Of a stretch of DNA of 64,000 nucleotides, positions 5,351 through 49,194 are shown in pieces. Location of the stretch: NCBI GenBank assembly GCA_000004985.1, contig GG738845.1; one strand, given 5' to 3'. The number at the start of each line of letters is the position of its first letter. Within the stretch, counting starts at the first letter, position 1. The DNA comes from Naegleria gruberi (taxonomy: Eukaryota). The position numbers and the translations under genes are program-made. The notes below the pieces were generated by a model. The model searched no databases and was not told where the DNA came from. It saw only the letters and a program-made list of their open reading frames with translations.

Positions 5351-6209
5351 TTGTTATTGATTGACTATTTGCAGAATAATTGTTTTTCTATTATTAAAAA
5401 AATGACAATACATCATACTTCTGATGGTATCAGAGAGGGTTATCAATTTAAAGATCCCTATATTAAAAATCTATTTAATATGATTGCAAAACAATCACCT
5501 TGTTTTCCAATTGAACCTGATCATGTTCAAGTTATCGAAACACCATCACAATTTTATGATGATTTATTGGAGGGAATTAAACATGCAAAAGACAGAGTTG
5601 TATTGAGTAGTTTATATCTAGGAACAGGAGAACAAGAGAAGAAAATTATTCAAGTCTAAGGACTCTTCTATAGCTCTCACTAGCGCCTATTTTAACTTTA
5701 CAGATGAATATATGGAAAGAGTATTGACTACACCATGTACAGACATTTCAATACTCACTGCCTCACCGGCTGCAAATGGATTTTTTACAGCAACTGGCAT
5801 TTCAAAGAATATTCCAATGGCATATGATACTATGGAGCAATCATTTTTTTCTGCAGTTGAGAGAAATCAAAAATTGGGATCCATCAAATTATTCGAATAC
5901 AATAGAGAGAAGTGGACTTTCCATGCCAAAGGATTGTGGCTCTATTCTCCAAACAAAACTATTAATGCACCATTTCTAACCATGATTGGAAGTAGTAATT
6001 TTGGACAACGATCAACAGAAAGAGATGTCGAATCTCAAATAATTTTAATGACTGAGGATGAAAAGTTAATGCAAACATTAGAGAAGGAGAGACAAGGTCT
6101 CGCCAATTACTCCAAACTTGTAACAAGAGCTACTTTTGCCTCTCCTGAGAGAAAGATTGGCAAAGTTTCACAGTTTTTAGTTTCCAAGTTTTTCCATAAA
6201 TTCCTTTAA
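5351..6209 (+). CDS. PGS1: CDP-diacylglycerol--glycerol-3-phosphate 3-phosphatidyltransferase (PGS1, PLD superfamily) - apparently internally deleted or mis-assembled
   Basis: ORF 5351..5659 'VQVIETPSQFYDDLLEGIKHAKDRVVLSSLYLGTGEQEKKII' matches the PGS1 N-terminus ('VRVLSSPAEFFELMKGQIRVAKRRVVMASLYLGTGPLEQELV'). ORF 5712..6209 'ILTASPAANGFF...EKWTFHAKGLWLY...TMIGSSNFGQRS' matches the PGS1 C-terminus including the second HKD motif. The roughly 230 residues between them, including the first HKD 'HIKVYLFDN', are absent. The two ORFs are in different frames, and no intron of this size could supply the missing sequence. Confidence 0.55.
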
Positions 6210-21183: not shown

Positions 21184-22999
21184 TTGAGAATAATAAAAGA
21201 AAAAATGAATGAACAAGTATTATCGAGTACACTTTCACATTTTGAAAGTCTATTCGAAGTTCTTTTAGAAAAACAACAAGAAACTTCTGAACAATTACAA
21301 GAAATTATTTCCGAAAGAAATTCAATATGGCACGAAAAGATTATTCCCAAAATTGAACAATTGTATTATAAAAAGAGAGAATTTCATTTAAATAATGAAT
21401 TTCTCTCGTTAAAATCCAATAGGATGGATTCTCTTGTAAAGGAATTAATCGGAAGAGAGGATGAAAAACAAAACAGATTAATTGAGACTAGAAACATTGT
21501 TAAGGATAAATTTCAAGACTTGTTTAAATTGATAGGGATGGAAATGGATTATTTACATAATTTATCTAACTCTTCAAAAATTGGAGAGGATGCCAAGATC
21601 TTTCTGAAAATTCCAAAGAATTTGGATACTGAAGGGAGAATTGATTATTTATTGAATAATGTAGAGGAAAATATTAGAAACGAGTATAAGGATAAAAATC
21701 AATTGAAATATTACGAGATTGGGAAAAAGTTTGTTGAATATTTCAATCAGAGGGAAAATGAAAAAATTAGGAAAAACAACAAGATCGTCCTCAAGGAACA
21801 AAAGGACAAGCCAATGAATGAAAAATTGAACCAGCTGAGAGGGTTCATTGAAGACACATTCCATTTCAGTACAAGAAAAAAGAGTGAGTAATTTAATTGA
21901 GAATATTGATGGAATATTAATAGTTATCCAAAGTGCTAAATATGTATTATATTGCAAGATTAAATTCAATTATCATTACAATTTTCAACAAATACTGAAT
22001 CAGGAATCAACCATAACAACATTTGATGCTTGGTGTGATAAATATTCAATACTGGAACGGTTCAATAATGAAATAAGGGAAGTATATTACAAACGACAAT
22101 TATTTTCCAATAGTGAGGAGTATGATTTGAATATTCTCAAACCTAGTGTTGAAATAACTAATCATTCAACATTCAACCTCTCCAGAAAAATCTCAGAACC
22201 AAGAAATAACAATCCTATGAAAACTATTCTAGGTCTATATTTATTTTCCCTAATACTTTCAGATCCTATTCTACTAGGTCAAGACGAAACAAAAGTACAA
22301 AGCCTAAGAATATTATTTATTGAACTTGTAAATCGAACGCAATTCAAACATTTTTCTCGGTTGTTGCCTGATATGAAATTGTCAATATTAACAACTAATC
22401 TCGTAAAACTGAAAAGTGAAAAACAGAGCTATTTAAGGTACTTAATTAGCAAATATCAAACATCTCCTCAAGATGAAAAACTACTAAGATTAATGTTTAC
22501 TCTACATAATTGTGGAGTCAACAAGCTTTCTCAAACAAAAAAGAGGGAATTGGAGAAAATTGCAATGTCCATGATATTTCGAGAAGCTGCCAATTGTATT
22601 TCCATTAATGATTTCATGGTCATGTCCAAACTGTATAATATTGAAAATATCATTTCACCTTTATTAGTGGGTAAAAATTTGGAGTTTATCCCTACCGTTT
22701 CAAACCAGAAAAATCATGTCGAAGAATTGTTCCAATTATGGGACATCTTCAGTGAGTTGTTAGAAACATTTAAACAGAACCAGGTTGAAATGATTAAAAG
22801 AGCGAGAATGGAAATAACAGAGAGTATCAAATATATTTGTCAAAAATTGACATCACTTGTGATTTCATCTCAAGAGGGTTCCCTTTTACTTGTAGAAGAA
22901 ATGTTTTCACTTTTGGAATCTTCATACCATTCCCTTAAACATTTTCCTGATCTGCAAAATATGATTGAGCACACCCTTCAGTCCATAATAAAACTGTAA
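21184..22999 (+). CDS. hypothetical protein (about 590 aa), 2 exons
   Basis: Track ORFs 21184..21891 and 21848..22999 join through a 40-nt intron 21884..21923 (GTGAGTAATT...TATTAATAG), giving '...FHFSTRKKIIQSAKYVLYCKIKF...'. No recognisable domain. Confidence 0.4.
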
Positions 23000-23196: not shown

Positions 23197-24723
23197 TTAT
23201 TGAATTTGTTGTTGGAAAGTCTCAACCTCATTAGAGACAAGTATCTTGATATCCTCAGTTTTAATATCCTCACTGAATTGATAATCAAAATTAGCTTGAC
23301 AAAAGTAAGTATTTTCAGAAGTGTTTGGATCGGTATTATATTCATCCTGATCGAACATTTCTTTCAGATAGGGATGTCTAAGAGCATCTCTAACTGTTAT
23401 TCTCTTTTCAGGATCCCATGTGAGCATTCTTTCAAGCAAATCAATTGCTAATTGATTCGTAACATGTGAAAAGATTTGACCGAAATTCTTCTTTTCATAT
23501 GTTTGCTTAAAGTGAGTCTTCATAAATTTAATTCCTTCACTGCAACCTCTAATTTCCTCATCCTTTGGAGTACCAACCAAACGTAAAATCAATTCCAATT
23601 GATCCTTAAAATCTTTGCCAGGAAACAAAATAGGTCTTCCATTTTTGTGAAGTGGTTTCACTAAGAGTTCCTATTAAAATGACTGTTATTAGAAAGAATA
23701 AAATTATACACATACAGCAAAAATACATCCAATTGACCACATATCCATAGCAGCATGCAATTTGTTCCAATACAAAATCTGATGCAACTATTTAGAAAAT
23801 ACATGTAGATCAGTACTTACAACTTCTGGACTTCTGTACCATCTTGTCACAACATATTTGGAATCTTCTGGATAATCTTGACCAATGGCTCTACTCAAAC
23901 CAAAATCACATATTTGTAAATCCAAATCTCTATTCAGCAGAATATTGCTTGGCTTTAAATCTCTGTGAATTATATTACTGCTATGCATGATATTAACTGC
24001 TTTTAAAATTTCATGAAGAAAGTATTGGATAGATTGTTCACTAAATGTCTGATTACTTGACAAGAGTTTTTCCAAATCAAAATCCATCAAATTGGTGACA
24101 ATATAAATACTTCCAGGTTGATAAGGATCAAAGAATAAATCCTTAAGTAATACAACATTATGGGCACTAAATTGTCTGAAATGTTTCAAAATTTTGATTT
24201 CTCTTAAAATTCTCTTTTGATAATTTCTATCTCTTTCATAGAGACTGGATACTTTTTTAATGGCAACTCTTTCATTATTCTTATTATCCAATGCACTCAC
24301 AACACAACCAAATCCACCAGCTCCTTTTACACCATCCATTGTATATCTCTTTGGTAATGAAAATGTGTTTCCATTTACAGAATATTGTACATATTCCGGA
24401 GAGGAAGTTTGTCTACTTGCTTGTTGACCAGTAAACATTTGATTATTATTCGGATATGATGAATTTCCTCCATTAAATAATTGTTGTTGTTGATTATAGT
24501 ATTGTTGCTGTTGTTGTTGATAGATATCATGTTGATGAGCCTGAATGAATGAAGCTTGATCGGAATATTGTTGTTGAGTATTGTAATTTGAACCATTGTA
24601 TTGCGGTTGTTGTTGTTGTTGATTTCCCATCACCATGTTCATATTGTTCAGTTGTTGGTGTTGGTAGGAATTATTGTTGTTGTGGTGTTGTGGAAGCATT
24701 TTTATTATTTTAATATTCTTCAT
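23197..24723 (-). CDS. MAP-kinase-like CMGC protein kinase with Q/N-rich N-terminus, 3 exons; activation loop S-K-Y instead of T-x-Y
   Basis: Exons (minus) 23821..24723, 23716..23787 and 23197..23670, with introns 23788..23820 (33 nt) and 23671..23715 (45 nt). Kinase motifs present: 'GAGGFGCV', 'VAIKKV', 'HRDLKPSNILL', 'DFGLSRA', '...SKYVVTRWYRSPEV|LHQILYWNKLHAAMDMWSIGCIFA|ELLVKPLHKNGRPILFPGKDFKDQLELI'. The MAPK 'TEYVATRWYRAPE' position reads 'SKYVVTRWYRSPE'. Confidence 0.7.
24440..24670. repeat. imperfect (TTG)n / (CAA)n trinucleotide tracts encoding the poly-Q/N region of the kinase N-terminus
   Basis: Runs such as 'ttgttgttgttgattatagtattgttgctgttgttgttg' lie inside the coding sequence. 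Confidence 0.6.
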
Positions 24724-31659: not shown

Positions 31660-32045
31660 TTTTTTTTTGTAAATTTAAAATTTTCAAAATTTGATCCTCC
31701 ACATTGTTGGCTGTATTGATTCTCCTCTTGCCACAAGAAGATGCCAAACTACCTGGAACGGGTTAAGGAACACATCATACATAAGTTGGATTGAATTAAA
31801 ATTTCATTTAAATTCTGAAATGCAACATTGTTTAAAAATAACCTTATTGTAAAAAACTGTTGAAATCTATTCTTAATTTCTCAATGCTATTATTTTTAGA
31901 TGGCTAACACCATACAAAGTAATCAGTAACATTGAAAATTACATCTATTCTAATAGAAATTTAAAATAAATACTTGCCTCCGTAACAACAACATTTTCAA
32001 AAAATCAAAAGAATTATCAAATACAAAAAAATTAATCGATTAAAA

Positions 32046-32951
32046 ATGTTGTCGTCATCATCAGAAAAGAAGGTTCCAGTGCCAGTGCCTGGACAAAGAA
32101 ATATTTTAATTACTAGTGCTTTACCCTATGTTAATAACTATCCTCACTTGGGAAATATTGTTGGTGCTGTTTTGAGTGCTGATGTATTTTCTCGTTATTG
32201 TAAACAAAAAGGATACAATACTCTTTATATTTGTGGTACCGATGAATATGGTACTGCAACAGAAACAAAGGCTTTCCAAGAAAAGACTACACCAGAAGCC
32301 ATTTGTGCTAAATATTATCAACTTCACAAACAAGTTTATGAATGGTTTGATATTGATTTTGACCACTTCGGAAGAACTAGTACAAAGCAACAAACAGAAA
32401 TTGCTCAAGACATTTTCTTAAAACTTCATCAAAATGGATTTTTGACTGAAAAGACTATTGAACAATTATATGATGAAGAGAGTAAGACATTTTTGGCTGA
32501 TAGATTTGTCAAAGGTACTTGTCCAACTTGTTTATATGAAGATGCTCGTGGTGACCAATGTGACAAATGTGGAAAATTGTTGAATCCTACTGAACTTATT
32601 AACCCACGTTCAACAACTACCGGTTCTGTACCAATCATCAAGGAAACAAATCACATTTTCATCAAGTTACAAGATTTGCAACACAAAACAAAGGAATGGT
32701 TCCAAAATAATAAGGATACTGCTCAATGGACTACAGTTGCTCGTTCAATTACTCAATCTTGGTTTGATAAGGGACTTGAGGAAAGATGTATTACCAGAGA
32801 TTTAAAGTGGGGTACTCCTGTTCCACTTGAAAAGTTTGCAGACAAGGTTTTCTATGTCTGGTTTGATGCTCCAATTGGTTACATTTCTATCACTGCTGAG
32901 TTCTTTGATTCATTGGGTCAAGGTGATTTGATAATATTGATGAAGAATTGA
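32046..32951 (+). CDS. methionyl-tRNA synthetase, N-terminal catalytic portion only (HIGH motif plus zinc-knuckle CP domain); gene appears truncated or internally deleted
   Basis: 'ILITSALPYVNNYPHLGNIVGAVLSADVFSRYCKQKGYNTLYICGTDEYGTATE' is the class I HIGH region of MetRS. 'GTCPTCLYEDARGDQCDKCGKLL' is the MetRS zinc knuckle, and 'WFDAPIGYISIT' is conserved. The frame stops at 32949-32951 with no KMSKS motif or anticodon-binding domain. Confidence 0.65.
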   Translation: MLSSSSEKKVPVPVPGQRNILITSALPYVNNYPHLGNIVGAVLSADVFSRYCKQKGYNTLYICGTDEYGTATETKAFQEKTTPEAICAKYYQLHKQVYEWFDIDFDHFGRTSTKQQTEIAQDIFLKLHQNGFLTEKTIEQLYDEESKTFLADRFVKGTCPTCLYEDARGDQCDKCGKLLNPTELINPRSTTTGSVPIIKETNHIFIKLQDLQHKTKEWFQNNKDTAQWTTVARSITQSWFDKGLEERCITRDLKWGTPVPLEKFADKVFYVWFDAPIGYISITAEFFDSLGQGDLIILMKN

Positions 32952-32961
32952 ACTTGGATAG

Positions 32962-33573
32962 AGTCAAGGAGGTCACAAGATTGGTGAACCAGTTGGTTTG
33001 ATTAGAAAGATTGAAGATGCTGAAATTAAGGAATGGAAAAAGCGTTTTGGAGGTGGTGAAGATGAAATCTTCCAATTGGATTTGCGTGTTGGTCAAATTG
33101 AATCCGTTGAATTACACCCAGAAGCTGACAAGTTATATGTCTTTAATGTAAAGATTGCTGACACTGTAACTAGAAAGATTGTTGGTGGTTTGAGAGAAGC
33201 TTATCCAGAATCTGAAACCTTAATTGGTAAGAAGGTTGTTGTTGCTTGCAATTTGGCTGTTGCTAAATTGAAGGGTGTTGAAAGTGAAGGTATGCTCTTG
33301 GCCTCTAAGCAAAATGATGGAGTGACCTCATTGCTCACACCTTCAGGAGAGGCTCCACTTGGTGCTCAAATTTATCCAAAGGGTGCTGCTTTCAAACCAG
33401 AAAAGGTGTTGAAGAAGAATCCAACAAAGATTATTTTGGATTCTATCAAGATTGGTGAAAATAATGTCCCACTCTATAAGAATTTACCTTTGGTTGTTTT
33501 CGATAGTCAAAAGAAGGTAATTGCTCAAGTTGCTACTGAAAAGGACATTGCTCAAGGAAGTGGTGTTTTCTAA
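32962..33573 (+). CDS. EMAP-II/Arc1p/Trbp111-type tRNA-binding (OB-fold) domain - likely the C-terminal appended domain of the MetRS gene, or a stand-alone fragment
   Basis: The frame is open from the acceptor AG at 32960-32961. 'LDLRVGQIESVELHPEADKLYVFNVKIADTVTRKIVGGLREAYPESETLIGKKVVVACNLAVAKLKGVESEGMLLA' matches the Myf/EMAP-II tRNA-binding domain consensus. There is no ATG at its 5' end; the track start is a TTG. Confidence 0.6.
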   Translation, partial: SQGGHKIGEPVGLIRKIEDAEIKEWKKRFGGGEDEIFQLDLRVGQIESVELHPEADKLYVFNVKIADTVTRKIVGGLREAYPESETLIGKKVVVACNLAVAKLKGVESEGMLLASKQNDGVTSLLTPSGEAPLGAQIYPKGAAFKPEKVLKKNPTKIILDSIKIGENNVPLYKNLPLVVFDSQKKVIAQVATEKDIAQGSGVF

Positions 33574-33733
33574 ATAAATTATTTTTGTACAACACTTTAA
33601 TAATTTGCTAGAGCATCCATAGCACTCTTGGCATCTTTTCTTGTTGCCTTTTTCCTCTTCTTTTTGATCATTTGCACTTCTCCAATTCCAGAAATAAGTG
33701 AGCTATCTCTCTTTTTGGATTCCTCACTATTGA

Positions 33734-34390
33734 TTATTTCTTCCTCAATGGTAACTTTTGGTTCATCATCTCTTCATCCTCTAAATGCACTCGTTTCTGT
33801 TTATAAAAATCATTAATTTCTTCCAACTCGTTCTGTGTAAATTCCTCTTTAGTTTGTTCCTCTTGTTCTTTTTCTTCTTGTAATTTTTCTAGCAAGTGAT
33901 CAGTCGATATCTTATTTTGTAAATTTTTAATTGTTTTTATAGAATCCAATACATCCAAATCTTCCAATTCTTGCTTACTATCGAGTGTTTTACTTTCCAA
34001 TTTTTTCATTGCATCTTCATCTTCATTATTATCATGTATTTCATCTGATCCATTATGCTTTGGTGGAAACGATCGAACACAATTATGTTCAGGAACGTAA
34101 CCACTATTTTTTGGATCAGTTTTAAATGTGACTTCGCTAGCACATCTAGTACATCTAATATAAAATCTAAATACTTTTAATCCTAAATATTCCTCTCCTT
34201 GAACTGTTTCCTTTCGGGAGTTGAATTTTTTTCCCTGATACATAAATTCTCCACAAACAGAACATTGTACCGTCATTGGCAACATCATTCTAATTTTGAC
34301 TTGGTTAGTCACAGCCACTTTCCTTCTCGGAATTTGGCTTGGATCAAACTCTGGGTGATAATACTTTTGAATAACTTTTCTTTCTGCCAT
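33734..34390 (-). CDS. YJU2: splicing factor YJU2 (CCDC94/CWC16 family)
   Basis: 'MAERKVIQKYYHPEFDPSQIP...CSVCGEFMYQGKKFNSRKETVQGEEYLGLKVFRFYIRCTRCASEVTFKTDPKNSGYVPEH' is collinear with human YJU2 '[21 protein letters not shown]...[60 protein letters not shown]'. Confidence 0.85.
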   Translation of the reverse strand: MAERKVIQKYYHPEFDPSQIPRRKVAVTNQVKIRMMLPMTVQCSVCGEFMYQGKKFNSRKETVQGEEYLGLKVFRFYIRCTRCASEVTFKTDPKNSGYVPEHNCVRSFPPKHNGSDEIHDNNEDEDAMKKLESKTLDSKQELEDLDVLDSIKTIKNLQNKISTDHLLEKLQEEKEQEEQTKEEFTQNELEEINDFYKQKRVHLEDEEMMNQKLPLRKK

Positions 34391-37890: not shown

Positions 37891-39368
37891 TTACATTTTC
37901 GGTGTATAATATTTGAATTTGATCGATTTCTTCTTTTTAACAAGTGTACCCTCATTAATAAAATCTCCATACTCATTACCAAGAATATTTACAACCGTGA
38001 CAGGTGTTTGTGGACTCTTTTTGATTTTTGATGGTTTGGAGATTTTCTGAATGGGTTGAGAGTTGTAATTTCTTTGAGGAGTAATAGCGCATTCATCATG
38101 TAAAGATACATCATTCCAAGCATTGTTTTGATTGGACTGAAAATTTGGAACACTTCCAGCAGAAGATACCACTGTTGTGTCTATCTTTGTTATAGATCCT
38201 CTTCTTGTTATATTTCTCGTACTATTTATGACCTGATGTTCATGCTTATCAAANNNNNNNNNNNNNNNNNNNNNNNNNNNNNNNNNNNNNNNNNNNNNNN
38301 NNNNNNNNNNNNNNNNNNNNNNNNNNNNNNNNNNNNNNNNNNNNNNNNNNNNNNNNNNNNNNNNNNNNNNNNNNNNNNNNNNNNNNNNNNNNNNNNNNNN
38401 NNNNNNNNNNNNNNNNNNNNNNNNNNNNNNNNNNNNNNNNNNNNNNNNNNNNNNNNNNNNNNNNNNNNNNNNNNNNNNNNNNNNNNNNNNNNNNNNNNNN
38501 NNNNNNNNNNNNNNNNNNNNNNNNNNNNNNNNNNNNNNNNNNNNNNNNNNNNNNNNNNNNNNNNNNNNNNNNNNNNNNNNNNNNNNNNNNNNNNNNNNNN
38601 NNNNNNNNNNNNNNNNNNNNNNNNNNNNNNNNNNNNNNNNNNNNNNNNNNNNNNNNNNNNNNNNNNNNNNNNNNNNNNNNNNNNNNNNNNNNNNNNNNNN
38701 NNNNNNNNNNNNNNNNNNNNNNNNNNNNATGAGCTATTATTAAGGGATGGACCAAAACGACATGTCGAGCTTGAGGATGGGGAGTTATTAAATTGACAAT
38801 TATTATGTTGAGGGTATTGGCGAGGTGGACTGGAATGGTGGAGAAGGTTATGTTGACTATTCAAATGTATGGAGTGAGCCTGACTTGTATTTGAATTTGG
38901 TGAGTGGAGATCTCCTGAAGAAGGTTCGCTATTGCCATTATTGAACATATGGACTTGAGGTGGAGAGGAAGTATTAAGGTTGTGGAATGAATGTTGTTGG
39001 TGGTGGTAGAATTGGGATTGATTTACATGTGTGGAGGAATGATTAGCAGAGCATGGTGGATTATTGACAGCATGGTTTGACCAGGAGGATGATGATGGAG
39101 GAGTATTAATAGCACTGGAATGTTGTTGAGGATTGTTATGAGTGGATTGGAATGTATTGGTTGGAGACACACAGTGGAACGAAGTGGCTCCTTGTGAGGC
39201 TTGTGATGAAAAAGAAGTTTGTCGTGTTAGTACTGAAGCATTATTGCTGCTCGACGTCGAGAACTTTGTAGTGCTATTCTGAGGAGAAGATCTATGACTG
39301 TAACTGTAGATACTTGTTGTTTGCTGATTAATAATATTATTATTATTATTAAGGTGATTCATTTTCAT
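37891..39368 (-). CDS. low-complexity S/N/H/Q/P-rich protein interrupted by an assembly gap (partial model)
   Basis: Track ORF 38226..39368 (-) 'MKMNHLNNNNNIINQQTTSIYSYSHRSS...' runs into the N-run. ORF 37891..38172 (-) on the far side is compositionally similar. Frame continuity across the gap is unknowable. Confidence 0.3.
38254..38728. other. assembly gap (475 N)
   Basis: Uninterrupted run of 'n' characters in the sequence. Confidence 0.99.
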
Positions 39369-42105: not shown

Positions 42106-42987
42106 TTACAAAATCAAGCAAAACTTCTTCTTACGCCCGTTCGGAGACTCCTTAGCTGGTTTATCTTTGAATTTCTCTGGGTTCAATACTGATGCAATAG
42201 CATTAATAAATACATCATCCAAACCCTCTCTTGTCTTGGCACTACATTCGCAATAAGTGACACATCCAGTTTGTTTAGCCATGTCTTCTCCTTCCTTTCC
42301 TTCGACCAATGAATCTCCTGCTTCCTTAACTGATCTTATAGTCTTTGGATCGGTAATCAAATCCTTCTTGAGTCCAATTAATATTATTGGAGTTTGCTTC
42401 TTACAATGTTCCTTGATTTCGGGTATCCACTTTTCTCTTACATTGTTTAAACTAGTTTTAGATATCATTGAGAAACAAACTAAGAACACATCGGTCTCAG
42501 AATAACTCAATGGACGCCTTAATGTTATGTATTGTTTAATATTGTTGAATAAGTATTAAATAGAAGGAAGAATTAATAAAACTTACAATGAGTCATAGTC
42601 TTCTTGACCAGCCTTTTTGAATTTGATTAATATAAATTAAAACTATTATAATTCTACATACAGTATCCCACAAACCAAGACTCACAGTTCTGTTTTCATA
42701 GAGGGTGTTGGCATTGTAGTTATCAAAGACAGTAGGCATGTATTCTATATGAATTTTCTTAAATAAGCAAATAGAACAATTTGAATCCACTCACCTTCCG
42801 GAAATTGGTTATTAGCATAACAATAGAGCATGCCTAAAATTCATTTAATTTAATGATGATAATTTCAAATAACATACAAGTTTTACCAACTGCTCCATCA
42901 CCGACAACAACAACCTAAGCGTCAAGAATTTCAAGTCAGTATAACTTGGCTAGTAAAAAAATTCCTTACCTTAACTGATGTATCCAT
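42106..42987 (-). CDS. Rho-family small GTPase (Rho/Rac-like, CAAX 'CLIL'), 6 exons including micro-exons
   Basis: Exons (minus) are 42970..42987 (MDTSVK), 42878..42914, 42795..42833, 42662..42744, 42587..42612 and 42106..42517. All introns are 44-69 nt with GTAAGG, GTATGT, GTGAGT, GTATGT and GTAAGT donors and YAG acceptors. Total 615 nt = 204 aa plus stop. The protein reads '[87 protein letters not shown]...[15 protein letters not shown]...KKKFCLIL'. It is collinear with RhoA/Rac1 ('LVIVGDGACGKTCLL...VPTVFENY...[25 protein letters not shown]'). Confidence 0.85.
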
Positions 42988-43142
42988 TTTTTATTTTTTG
43001 GGTGGGAAATGTGAACAAAGATTCTAAGGCGAATAATAACAGTCAAAATATTTCTCCATAACTATGTATAACTAACTTAATCGTTCTCTCCAATATATAT
43101 GAAGGAAGGAAAGCATTAAAAACTAGAAATTTTATGAGTAAC

Positions 43143-46278: not shown

Positions 46279-49194
46279 TTAAATACCACACTTGGCTTGT
46301 CTCATTTCTCTGTATAATTCAATAGCCTTCCTATCGAATGAAACAATTTTGGAGACTAGCTGAGAGAGGGGCTCACTGCTACTAGTATTGGTTTGCTGGC
46401 ATAGAAGTGTTGAGGTGTTGTGTTCAAGTTGTTCAAGTGTAGTGTGGAGGTGTTGAATTTCATCTCCAAAGTTCTGCATTGTCTTGATGAGTTCAATCAA
46501 TTCCTCTTTAGAGGAGAGTCTTGGATAGGTCTCTGAACCAAGTAACTCATTTCTATAGTGTAGAAAGTGTTGGAACTTGGAGAGAATGGAATATCGAGCA
46601 AGAAGAAGAGAATGAAAATCACTACCCTGAAGTAGGACATCGAAAGAGTGTAGAGTACGTGAAGAGGGAGATATTCTCAATTTCAATTCATGACCATAGG
46701 GAGTAATGAGAGAGGTGGACGATGAGAAATTATTGGAAGTGAGAGAAACCAACTCTCTATTCAACACATTTTTGGGTAAATCTTGGCGGAGTGGAATTTG
46801 AAGAATGGATTGCCAATTGTTGGTGAAATCTTCCTCCAATGGATTGAATCGAAGTTTGAACCCATGAGTCATGGATGGCATAAAATTGGAGAGAGTGGCA
46901 TAATTTGTCAATCCCTTATTCATTAGAGATTTTAGTCGTTGTTTTGAACTCTCTACTCGTATCAATCCCAAATTCTTTTTCATATTCACAAACTGAGGAG
47001 TGGATGGTTGAATAAGATCGATCAAATTAAATTCTTGTCTCTTAATTTCCAAAGAAAATTGACTCTCCGCATGACTAAAAGTCAATAAGAAGGTAACTTT
47101 GAATGGGCTATTGAGATTATTGATAGAGTTGATTAGGGAAATACTTCTCTTCCATGTATCTCCAGGTTCTAAATACATGATTGGATAAGAGAATGATTTA
47201 AATGGTGAATATTCTTGCTCCAGAACAATAATAATAGTCCACTGGTTGGTAATGACGAATTGGGATCCATTGAAAAGTGTGCATTCCAATAACATTTCCA
47301 AATTTTCCTTATTGGCTTTGCATTTCCAAAGTAGAGGTGATTTTCTTTCCTTGATCCTTCCACTCGTGTAGCAAATGCATAGCAATATTGAGAGAATAAA
47401 TTTCTTGATTCAGTTGCATTTCTCTCTCAGTTAAGGTTTGTAGTTTGGTTTGATTTTCATCCAATTTAACAATCATATCTCTGATACCTGTTTGCAATCT
47501 ATTGAGGATGGCTGTCCTACTCATAGATTCATCAACACTTTCATGAGAAGGTATTGACAAGTGTTGCAATTGACCCTCTCTTGTAAACACTGTACAAAAA
47601 CCTTTTGGCTTGGAAGGTATGGTTGGCTGTCTCTGATCAGATGCAAAACTCAACTGGGAGAGTGATACATCAAGATTGATGTTTGGATTTTGGTAAAGTT
47701 TCTGATTTTTCAATTCCTGAATAAATAAAATGTCAGTGTTGGAGGAAATTTCTCTGAGATGAATATTTTCTGGAATGATTAGTTGTCTAGAGTTCTTTGA
47801 GAATGAGAATGGATTATCACCTGTTGCAATCTTGGAGAATATATTTAATGAAAACATTGAACCAATCTGATTACTGAAAATTAATTGATCCTTATGTACG
47901 ATTGAGGAGACAATTTGTTGGTCAATGTACCAAGATCGATGAATTATTCTCTCAGAGTCGTGATATAATAATACAATATGTCCAAATCGTCTAAAAATTA
48001 TTATATCAAAAAATATCAATTTAAAACATACCCAATCAACAGTAAAGAGTTAAACTTTTTCACGGAGGAATCGGTGGAAATAATTATTGGAATAATGTTT
48101 TGTACAGGATCTCTAAGTTGAGTGATTTTTCTATGACAAGTGCTTTGGGTGAATCTCTGAATTACATTATGATTTGAGGGAAAACAGCAAACTGAGCCAT
48201 CATTACATCCAATAACACACACTGAGGAAGTTAAAAATACAAAATCTCTTCCAAATAGGCATTTGAATAGTTCTTCATCTGCAATAAAGCTATTCTGATC
48301 GAAAACTATTGAATCACTCTTCTCTTCACAATAGTATAGTGCAGTCATTCTACAAGAAGCGAAGCTTGGGAGTTTGGCATGTGGAATAATTGTTAAATCC
48401 TCAGAATCCTCTTCCTGATATAATTTGAATACACGGTCCCCTGACAGCAAAAGTATATGTTTACCAGAGTTGGATTTTTTAGATTCGTCATTGATGAGTG
48501 TCTTGAGTGTCTCTGATTCAACTGATTGAATTTGAGATACCACCCCAACATTGGACACACTCGTTAAAATATCACCATCTCCCAACTCTTTCACAATAAT
48601 TCCATGACTATTTACAATTTCATCTTTCCAATCCAATTCGATTGATTTAATTTTATCCTTTGAAACTTTTGTAAATTTAGAAGGTATTTTAGCATTAGTT
48701 TGGTTTGGTTTGTTAAATTCCTTTTTCGATTTTCTCTTCTTTTCTTTTTTTAATATTTCGAATAAATATACATTTTTATCAGAACAACTAATCACTATTG
48801 AAATCTTTTTCTTTTTTCTCAAATAAATATGATGACATGAAATTGACAGATTAGGCTTACATAAAATAATTTGTTTCAATTCATAATTTACCAAGATGTG
48901 AATTATCGAATCAGACGAATGAATAGAAGTGATTACTCTTTCCATATTATCCTCCTTGATAATTATCGACTGCATCCGATTGGAGAATGGTGAATTATTT
49001 TCTAGAGTATTAAATTCCTGATGATCAATTACTCCTCCACTCCAAAATTTAATTGTTTGTGAATCCTCTCGGAAATTAATTCTCATAATTCGATTAGAAG
49101 AATCGGCACCATAACTCGTCCCAACACTAGGAATTTGTGGAGAGGAAAAACCTGGGGATGCATCAAAATTGATACTAGACATTTTTTTTTTCAA
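46279..49194 (-). CDS. large hypothetical protein (about 990 aa) on three track ORFs; one clear intron plus one unresolved frame break
   Basis: ORFs 48016..49194 and 47309..48019 join via a 41-nt intron 47991..48031 (GTATGT...TTTTTAG), giving '...LLLIGRFGHIVLLYHDSERIIHRSW...'. The shift between 47309..48019 and 46279..47385, an overlap at 47309-47385, has no convincing GT...AG and may be a sequencing indel or pseudogenisation. The true ATG is likely about 49182, after an A-run. No recognisable domain. Confidence 0.35.

What the first reader, a model, noticed from the sequence alone, without database searches (positions are those of the whole stretch)
32046..33573. Methionyl-tRNA synthetase lacks KMSKS and anticodon-binding regions, with an EMAP-II-type domain directly downstream
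ORF 32046..32951 encodes a convincing MetRS N-terminal half (HIGH region and Zn knuckle) and then hits a stop. Eleven nt later an acceptor AG opens a frame at 32962. That frame encodes the appended EMAP-II/Arc1p-like tRNA-binding domain found at the C-terminus of many eukaryotic MetRS. About 330 residues are missing: the second Rossmann half with KMSKS and the helical anticodon-binding domain. No phase-compatible GT donor exists near the stop to splice the halves. This is the same pattern as PGS1, so it is either a systematic assembly artefact or a real internal deletion.
Basis: partly seen in the sequence, partly recalled or inferred. Interest (0 to 1): 0.6.

Follow-up and report, generated by a model that had tools for sequence, protein, structure and literature searches.

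The report
Assembly-broken Naegleria MetRS gene
The "truncated" methionyl-tRNA synthetase is the ordinary Naegleria gruberi gene from which the draft reference sequence has silently lost 721 bases plus one more, so it is almost certainly a sequencing or assembly artefact rather than biology.

Summary
ORF 32046..32951 encodes the first 295 residues of a MetRS and then stops. The C-terminal tRNA-binding domain follows in another frame.

The window is the Naegleria gruberi reference. Its annotated model XP_002683222.1 (487 aa) bridges the break with a 64-nt GT..AG "intron" at 32900..32963.

An independently assembled contig (ENA ERZ929261, L001) covers the same locus and encodes an uninterrupted 749-aa MetRS. 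Re-inserting 721 nt after window 32930 and one T after 32963 reproduces that protein exactly. The lost residues are 296-536, which is 241 aa rather than about 330. They include KFSKS and most of the anticodon-binding domain.

N. fowleri and another Naegleria have the same intronless 747-749-aa gene beside the same convergent Yju2 neighbour.

Over 1.94 kb the window differs from L001 by two substitutions, eight small indels and the deletion. Every coding difference breaks a frame, including a 2-nt insertion that truncates Yju2. That pattern fits sequence error, not allelic variation.

PGS1 at 5417..6158 shows the same kind of silent loss, about 216 aa.

Verdict: artefact of the draft assembly, and low interest. 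A real heterozygous null allele is not excluded without reads.

The parts
32046..32930 (+). MetRS codons 1-295: first Rossmann half with HLGN at 32145-32156, and the CP domain Zn knuckle CPTC at 32520-32531 and CDKCG at 32559-32573. The open frame then runs into out-of-frame sequence and stops at 32949-32951.
   Evidence: 100% identical to P0001 aa 1-295 (tblastn). Pfam tRNA-synt_1g positions 1-265 of 391. Motif coordinates.
32928..32933 (+). Silent junction. 721 nt (L001 1095..1815, codons 296-536 including KFSKS) are absent between 32930 and 32931, and there is no N run.
   Evidence: blastn of L001 against the window gives two blocks, 1-1094 = 31837-32930 and 1813-2663 = 32928-33779. The reconstruction reproduces P0001 exactly.
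32933..32965 (+). Surviving codons 537-547 (NIDEELNLDRV) of the anticodon-binding domain, in a second reading frame.
32963..32964 (+). A 1-nt loss relative to the intact contig (GAGTTCAAGG there, GAGTCAAGG here). It shifts the frame again.
   Evidence: Alignment. Inserting one T after 32963 restores P0001.
32965..33573 (+). MetRS codons 548-749 plus the stop codon: the end of the anticodon-binding domain, then the appended tRNA_bind / EMAP-II-like C-terminal domain.
   Evidence: 100% identical to P0001 aa 548-749. Pfam PF01588 and the tail of PF19303.
32900..32963 (+). Spurious 64-nt GT(TCTT)..(AT)AG 'intron' of reference model XP_002683222.1 / NAEGRDRAFT_77798. It is made of coding sequence left on either side of the break.
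   Evidence: It is the only single-intron model that reproduces P0002; accession. The same bases encode EFFDSLGQGDL and NIDEELNLDRV in P0001, which are conserved in N. fowleri P0003. Two real introns seen in the window start GTAAGT and GTATGT.
31946..32036 (+). A cluster of five small indels and one substitution relative to the intact contig, just upstream of the MetRS start codon.
   Evidence: Alignment.
33597..34390 (-). Convergent neighbour Saf4/Yju2. The window ORF stops early (33734..34390, 218 aa) because of 2 extra nt at 33772/33774. Removing them gives a 263-aa ORF with the conserved C-terminus.
   Evidence: The Yju2 neighbour is conserved in N. fowleri L002 and Naegleria sp. L004.
5417..6158 (+). 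PGS1 with the same kind of silent internal loss. Homologue residues 22-99 lie at 5417-5650 (one frame) and residues ~316-481 at ~5665-6158 (another frame). About 216 aa, including the first HKD motif, are missing within about 15 nt.
   Evidence: Pfam PLDc_2; tblastn with P0122, P0123, P0130 and P0290.

Best explanation
The locus is the single, orthologous, intronless cytosolic MetRS gene of Naegleria gruberi. Its real product is a 749-aa enzyme. It has a Rossmann fold with HLGN and KFSKS, a Zn-knuckle CP insertion, a helical anticodon-binding domain, and an appended EMAP-II/Trbp111-like OB-fold that helps bind tRNA in cis.

The draft reference sequence, which this window reproduces, has lost 721 nt of the gene without leaving an N gap. 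It also carries several 1-3-nt miscalls around it. I infer that a poorly covered stretch was joined through low-quality read ends, or through a clone or read carrying a deletion.

The annotation pipeline then invented a 64-nt GT-AG intron to bridge the break, which produced the 487-aa 'MetRS' XP_002683222.1.

Shown here: the identity of the locus, the exact lesion, an intact version of the same locus, and the origin of the annotated intron. Inferred: that the lesion arose during cloning, sequencing or assembly rather than in the cell.
For: 1. The window is the N. gruberi reference. P0002 (XP_002683222.1, on a 1.55-Mb contig) equals window 32046..32899 + 32964..33573.

2. L001 is an independent megahit contig from ENA ERZ929261. 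It matches the window through the upstream intergenic region, both gene parts, and on into the neighbouring gene, and it encodes a 749-aa MetRS. Adding back 721 nt and 1 nt to the window gives that protein exactly.

3. N. fowleri (749 aa, 2250-nt single exon) and another Naegleria (747 aa) are collinear with P0001 and have the same convergent Yju2 neighbour. The missing segment is as conserved as the flanks: 79% against 81% and 71% identity to N. fowleri.

4. Error signature. Over 1.94 kb shared with L001 there are two substitutions, neither a clean coding change: one lies upstream of the ATG and one is at the junction itself. Against these stand eight small indel events. All coding differences break a frame, including a 2-nt insertion that removes the conserved C-terminus of Yju2.

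5. A second conserved gene 27 kb away, PGS1, has an analogous silent loss of about 650 nt with a frame change.

6. The bridging 'intron' is built from conserved coding sequence. Its donor GTTCTT is unlike the GTAAGT and GTATGT donors of two real introns seen in the window.

7. Cytosolic MetRS is indispensable (established knowledge). No other N. gruberi cytosolic-type MetRS appeared among the listed hits.
Against: - No sequencing reads of strain NEG-M could be examined, so the junction is not directly shown to be unsupported.
- The provenance of L001 is unknown. The run ERR1078381 / PRJEB11402 is labelled 'metagenome' and no paper was found. It could be another strain or haplotype.
- The same assembly does mark another gap with 475 N (38254..38728). 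So the assembler evidently believed it had continuous sequence across the MetRS junction, which implies that at least one physical read carried the junction.
- The flanks of the lost segment share only short imperfect similarity (GGTGATT / GGTGTTA; TTGTGGAAGAATTG / TTGATGAAGAATTG). That neither explains a repeat collapse nor excludes a genuine slippage deletion.
Confidence: 0.82

Rival explanations
1. Real heterozygous null allele. Strain NEG-M, a long-cultured and probably polyploid laboratory strain, truly carries a 721-bp deletion in one MetRS haplotype. The assembler happened to pick that haplotype, and an intact allele supplies the function.
For: - The junction carries no N run although the assembly marks other gaps, so some read probably spanned it.
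- There is short imperfect similarity at the two breakpoints.
- An intact version with identical flanks exists, as expected for a very recent deletion.
Against: - The same 1.94 kb also carries a frameshift in Yju2 and a further frameshift in MetRS, yet no synonymous or other clean coding substitutions. Natural haplotypes normally differ mostly by substitutions.
- A second conserved gene in the window, PGS1, has a loss of similar size.
- The intact haplotype's 721 nt should then also be somewhere in the assembly. However, no N. gruberi protein of up to about 420 aa containing it was found, and it is not elsewhere in the window.
Confidence: 0.13
2. A genuine truncated MetRS-like protein. The 64-nt GT-AG intron is really spliced, and a 487-aa protein is made that fuses the first Rossmann half to the EMAP-II-like domain. 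It would act as a non-catalytic paralogue, while another gene provides MetRS activity.
For: A phase-compatible GT..AG pair exists and is used by the reference annotation.
Against: - The locus is the syntenic orthologue of the single full-length gene in N. fowleri and Naegleria sp..
- The 'intron' is conserved coding sequence in P0001 and P0003.
- The flanks show no divergence from the intact gene.
- No second cytosolic MetRS from N. gruberi was listed.
- The product would lack KFSKS and nearly all of the anticodon-binding domain.
Confidence: 0.03
3. The missing middle is encoded elsewhere, as a split or rearranged gene, and is joined at the RNA or protein level.
For: None beyond the absence of the segment here.
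Against: - No trace of the segment appears anywhere in the 64-kb window, by blastn or tblastn.
- No separate N. gruberi protein carrying it was found.
- The intact contig shows the segment in place at this very locus.
Confidence: 0.01

Closest known systems
Naegleria fowleri methionine--tRNA ligase FDP41_000217 (P0003, 749 aa) and the full-length N. gruberi protein P0001 from ENA ERZ929261
   Same: The architecture is the same: tRNA-synt_1g, Anticodon_3, tRNA_bind. The window pieces are 100% identical to P0001 and about 81% / 71% identical to P0003. The convergent Yju2 neighbour is the same.
   Different: The window lacks codons 296-536 and has an extra 1-nt loss.
Eukaryotic and archaeal-type cytosolic MetRS with an appended C-terminal EMAP-II/Trbp111-like tRNA-binding domain (plants, Dictyostelia, red algae)
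   Same: All top hits carry PF09334 + PF19303 + PF01588 in the same order. From general knowledge of plant MetRS, not tested here, the appended domain acts in cis to strengthen tRNA binding.
   Different: Nothing differs once the lost 722 nt are restored. As written in the window, the gene has no KMSKS loop and almost none of the anticodon-binding helices.
Gene-model artefacts at unmarked breaks in draft Sanger-era assemblies, where predicted introns bridge missing sequence
   Same: A homology-guided model (XP_002683222.1) jumps the break with a minimal GT..AG pair made of coding sequence. PGS1 shows a second unmarked break.
   Different: A break like this is usually marked by an N run, as at 38254..38728. 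Here the contigs are fused without one.

Membership tests
Class I methionyl-tRNA synthetase (Pfam tRNA-synt_1g) | HIGH signature in the first Rossmann half | tested here: met
   HLGN at aa 34-37, window 32145-32156. The Pfam match starts at profile position 1.
Class I methionyl-tRNA synthetase (Pfam tRNA-synt_1g) | Zn-binding knuckle in the CP insertion | tested here: met
   CPTC at aa 159-162 and CDKCG at aa 172-176.
Class I methionyl-tRNA synthetase (Pfam tRNA-synt_1g) | KMSKS loop in the second Rossmann half | tested here: not met
   Absent from the window sequence. The Pfam match ends at profile position 265 of 391. It is present as KFSKS (aa 353-357) in the intact contig of the same locus.
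Class I methionyl-tRNA synthetase (Pfam tRNA-synt_1g) | Helical anticodon-binding domain (PF19303) | tested here: not met
   Only profile positions 122-151 of 152 survive in the window. The full domain spans aa 434-579 in P0001.
MetRS with appended EMAP-II/Trbp111-like domain | C-terminal PF01588 tRNA_bind OB-fold following the anticodon-binding domain | tested here: met
   PF01588, E 2e-25, full profile length. It is at aa 587-681 in P0001.
Processed or decaying pseudogene, or truncated paralogue | A separate locus from the functional gene, with accumulated substitutions | tested here: not met
   Same neighbours as the single gene in N. fowleri and Naegleria sp.. No coding substitutions against the intact contig.
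Spliceosomal intron at 32900..32963 | Non-coding sequence, absent from the orthologous coding sequence, with the species' usual splice signals | tested here: not met
   The bases encode conserved residues in P0001 and P0003. The donor is GTTCTT, against GTAAGT and GTATGT in two real introns of the window. Orthologues are intronless.
Assembly or sequencing artefact | The junction is unsupported by the bulk of genomic reads of the sequenced strain | not testable with these tools
   No reads or trace files are available. The support is indirect: the intact independent contig and the indel-only pattern of differences.

The most novel reading that the evidence does not exclude
Strain NEG-M really carries, on one haplotype, a block with recent inactivating lesions in several essential genes: the MetRS 721-bp deletion, the Yju2 frameshift, and the PGS1 deletion of about 650 bp. 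That would mean a polyploid asexual laboratory amoeba tolerates a degenerating haplotype.
Probability: 0.08. Interest if true: 0.35.

Novelty: not a real feature. Interest (0 to 1): 0.1.

Why it matters
Its value is mainly practical.

- The public protein XP_002683222.1 / UniProt D2UYH8, named methionine--tRNA ligase, is a 487-aa chimera. It has no KMSKS loop and almost none of the anticodon-binding domain, which could mislead comparative studies of aminoacyl-tRNA synthetases or inferences of domain loss in Heterolobosea.
- Two unmarked losses of about 0.65-0.72 kb, plus a frameshift in Yju2, occur within one 64-kb window. This suggests the draft N. gruberi v1.0 sequence has silent breaks that an N-gap filter will not catch.
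- Gene-absence or truncation calls from this assembly should therefore be checked against the newer long-read assembly.

Tried and rejected
- **Exact-product look-ups.** I looked up the 301-aa ORF, the Yju2 ORF, the serpin ORF, the ERG24 ORF and P0002 to find further independent contigs. None is on record. So divergence between the ENA sample and the reference could not be measured elsewhere in the window.
- **JGI metagenome scan.** A scan for a 22-mer just left of the junction, present in both the intact and the deleted form, found nothing.
- **Literature.** Searches for PRJEB11402, ERR1078381, ERZ929261 and for the protein accessions returned nothing. The 2010 genome paper is not held.
- **Search with the missing 241 aa.** This was meant to find a stray N. 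gruberi fragment elsewhere in the assembly. The best hit was 56% identical. The tool did not return P0001 itself and listed nothing longer than about 1.75 times the query. So it excludes only short fragment models.
- **An intact N. gruberi or N. fowleri PGS1.** None was found by either protein search; the best hits were 50-52% identical. The PGS1 break is therefore defined only against distant homologues.
- **Repeats at the breakpoints.** There is no long direct repeat (the best is 12 of 14 nt) and no inverted repeat at the breakpoints. Repeat collapse and hairpin-mediated deletion are not supported.
- **Other apparently split genes.** The MAPK-like kinase at 23200-24723 and the Rho/Rac-like GTPase at 42109-43000 have ordinary short introns and are intact.
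- **Overlapping ORFs without Pfam matches.** The pairs at 21184-22999 and 46279-49194 could not be resolved.

Full report
**What is in the sequence.**

ORF 32046..32951 (301 aa) is a convincing N-terminal part of a methionyl-tRNA synthetase.
- It matches Pfam tRNA-synt_1g from profile position 1 to 265 of 391 (E 2e-106).
- It contains HLGN (aa 34-37) and the Zn knuckle CPTC...CDKCG.

The frame opening at 32962 carries a full tRNA_bind (PF01588) domain. Before that domain it carries the last ~30 profile positions of the MetRS anticodon-binding domain PF19303. The downstream frame is the true C-terminal end of the same MetRS, not only an EMAP-II module.

**Which genome and which annotation.**

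A protein search returned 'predicted protein [Naegleria gruberi]' as P0002, 487 aa, on a 1.55-Mb contig. Its accessions are XP_002683222.1, EFC50478.1, NAEGRDRAFT_77798 and UniProt D2UYH8.

An exhaustive test of single-intron models shows that P0002 equals window 32046..32899 + 32964..33573. The reference annotation therefore bridges the break with a 64-nt GT..AG intron at 32900..32963.

**An intact copy of the same locus.**

The best hit was P0001, a 749-aa protein from an ENA assembly (ERZ929261, run ERR1078381). Its 2663-nt contig L001 aligns to the window in two blocks:
- L001 1-1094 matches window 31837-32930.
- L001 1813-2663 matches window 32928-33779.

The match covers 209 nt of upstream intergenic sequence and continues downstream into the neighbouring gene on the other strand. 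L001 is therefore the same locus, not a paralogue.

Inserting L001 1095..1815 (721 nt) after window 32930 and one T after 32963 gives a 2250-nt ORF that translates exactly to P0001. The window lacks residues 296-536, which is 241 aa. These cover:
- the rest of the Rossmann fold, with KFSKS at aa 353-357;
- most of the anticodon-binding domain. In P0001, Pfam places tRNA-synt_1g at aa 20-418, Anticodon_3 at 434-579 and tRNA_bind at 587-681.

Codons 537-547 (NIDEELNLDRV) survive at 32933-32965 in a second frame. The 1-nt loss then moves the remainder into a third frame. The missing segment is not anywhere else in the window.

**Relatives.**

N. fowleri (P0003, 749 aa) has an uninterrupted 2250-nt MetRS gene in assembly GCA_008403515.1. 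A Logan assembly of another run shows the same gene. In both, a convergent Saf4/Yju2 gene follows. A further Naegleria from an ENA metagenome (P0004, 747 aa) has the same arrangement. The window has the same Yju2 neighbour at 33734..34390 on the minus strand.

The segment missing from the window is conserved about as well as the flanks. Identity to N. fowleri is 79% for the missing part, against 81% and 71% for the two flanks. The ancestral and functional state of this locus is thus one intronless gene of about 749 codons.

The bases of the annotated 'intron' encode EFFDSLGQGDL and NIDEELNLDRV. Both align with conserved N. fowleri residues. Its donor GTTCTT differs from the GTAAGT and GTATGT donors of two genuine introns seen in a kinase gene of the window. 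It is not a real intron.

**Artefact or real deletion.**

I could not examine reads, so this step is an inference. The pattern of differences between the window and L001 is informative. Over 1.94 kb there are:
- two substitutions, one upstream of the ATG and one at the junction itself;
- eight small indel events;
- the 721-nt loss.

No synonymous or other clean coding substitution is present, and every coding difference breaks a frame. Besides the two MetRS lesions, the window has 2 extra nt at 33772/33774. These cut the Yju2 ORF to 218 aa. Removing them yields a 263-aa ORF ending in KKKRKKATRKDAKSAMDALANY, which matches the conserved C-termini of the N. fowleri and L004 proteins. Five further small indels cluster at 31946-32036.

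Natural haplotypes or strains differ mainly by substitutions, and frame-breaking indels in conserved genes are selected against. An indel-only pattern is what low-quality consensus sequence looks like.

A second conserved gene in the same window shows the same kind of silent loss. PGS1 retains homologue residues 22-99 at 5417-5650 and residues ~316-481 at ~5665-6158, in a different frame. About 216 aa, including the first HKD motif, vanish within about 15 nt.

Cytosolic MetRS is indispensable, and no other N. gruberi cytosolic-type MetRS was listed. Taken together, I put about 0.8 on an artefact of the draft reference. The exact route could be low-coverage read tails joined falsely, or a clone or read carrying a deletion. 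That route could not be determined.

**What argues the other way.**

- The same scaffold marks another gap with 475 N (38254..38728). The assembler therefore believed it had continuous sequence at the MetRS junction, so some physical read probably carried the junction.
- The origin of L001 is unknown, and no paper mentions the project or run.
- The breakpoints share only short imperfect similarity and no inverted repeats. This neither explains a collapse nor excludes a slippage deletion.

A real, recent, heterozygous null allele in the laboratory strain therefore remains possible, at about 0.1. A functional 487-aa spliced product or a split gene is very unlikely.

**Comparison with known things and verdict.**

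With the 722 nt restored, this is an ordinary member of the cytosolic and archaeal-type MetRS family that carries an appended EMAP-II/Trbp111-like C-terminal domain. All top hits from plants, Dictyostelia and red algae have this architecture. As written in the window, it fails two defining features of the family: the KMSKS loop and the anticodon-binding domain. That failure belongs to the sequence record, not, as far as the evidence goes, to the organism.

Interest is low. The useful outcome is a flagged mis-annotation (D2UYH8) and a warning that this draft assembly contains unmarked internal losses.

Noticed in passing
window 5417..6158 (+): PGS1 (a PLD-type CDP-DAG--glycerol-3-phosphate phosphatidyltransferase) is broken in the same way as MetRS. 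About 216 aa, including the first HKD motif, are missing within about 15 nt, with a frame change and no N run. No N. gruberi PGS1 protein was found in either protein database, so the reference may have no usable model for it.
   Followed up: partly
window 33597..34390 (-), lesion at 33772/33774: The Saf4/Yju2 splicing-factor gene is cut to 218 aa by 2 extra nt relative to contig L001. Removing them gives a 263-aa ORF with the conserved C-terminus seen in N. fowleri and Naegleria sp.
   Followed up: yes
window 31946..32036: There is a cluster of five small indels (3, 2, 1, 1 and 1 nt) and one substitution relative to L001 in the 100 nt upstream of the MetRS start codon. The surrounding 1.9 kb is otherwise identical.
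   Followed up: partly
window 38254..38728: The only declared assembly gap in the window is a run of 475 N. It overlaps ORFs on both strands (38128..38796 on the plus strand, 38226..39368 on the minus strand).
   Followed up: no
window 21184..22999 (+) and 46279..49194 (-): These are runs of long ORFs on one strand that overlap each other by 4-77 nt in different frames and have no Pfam match. No clear GTAAGT-type intron was found at two of the three junctions. They could be further frameshifts or unusual introns.
   Followed up: partly
one search hits P0013 and P0026: MetRS proteins from MAGs labelled Candidatus Bilamarchaeaceae and Candidatus Micrarchaeota are 61-66% identical to the Naegleria N-terminal part and have the same tRNA_bind tail. 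They rank among eukaryotic hits. This could be eukaryotic contamination of the MAGs, or close archaeal-eukaryotic kinship of this MetRS type.
   Followed up: no
(tool behaviour): the search for homologous proteins listed no protein longer than about 1.75 times the query (862 aa for a 504-aa query, 469 for 268, 421 for 241). With the 241-aa fragment as query it did not return P0001, although P0001 contains that query exactly. Negative results from fragment queries are therefore weak.
   Followed up: no
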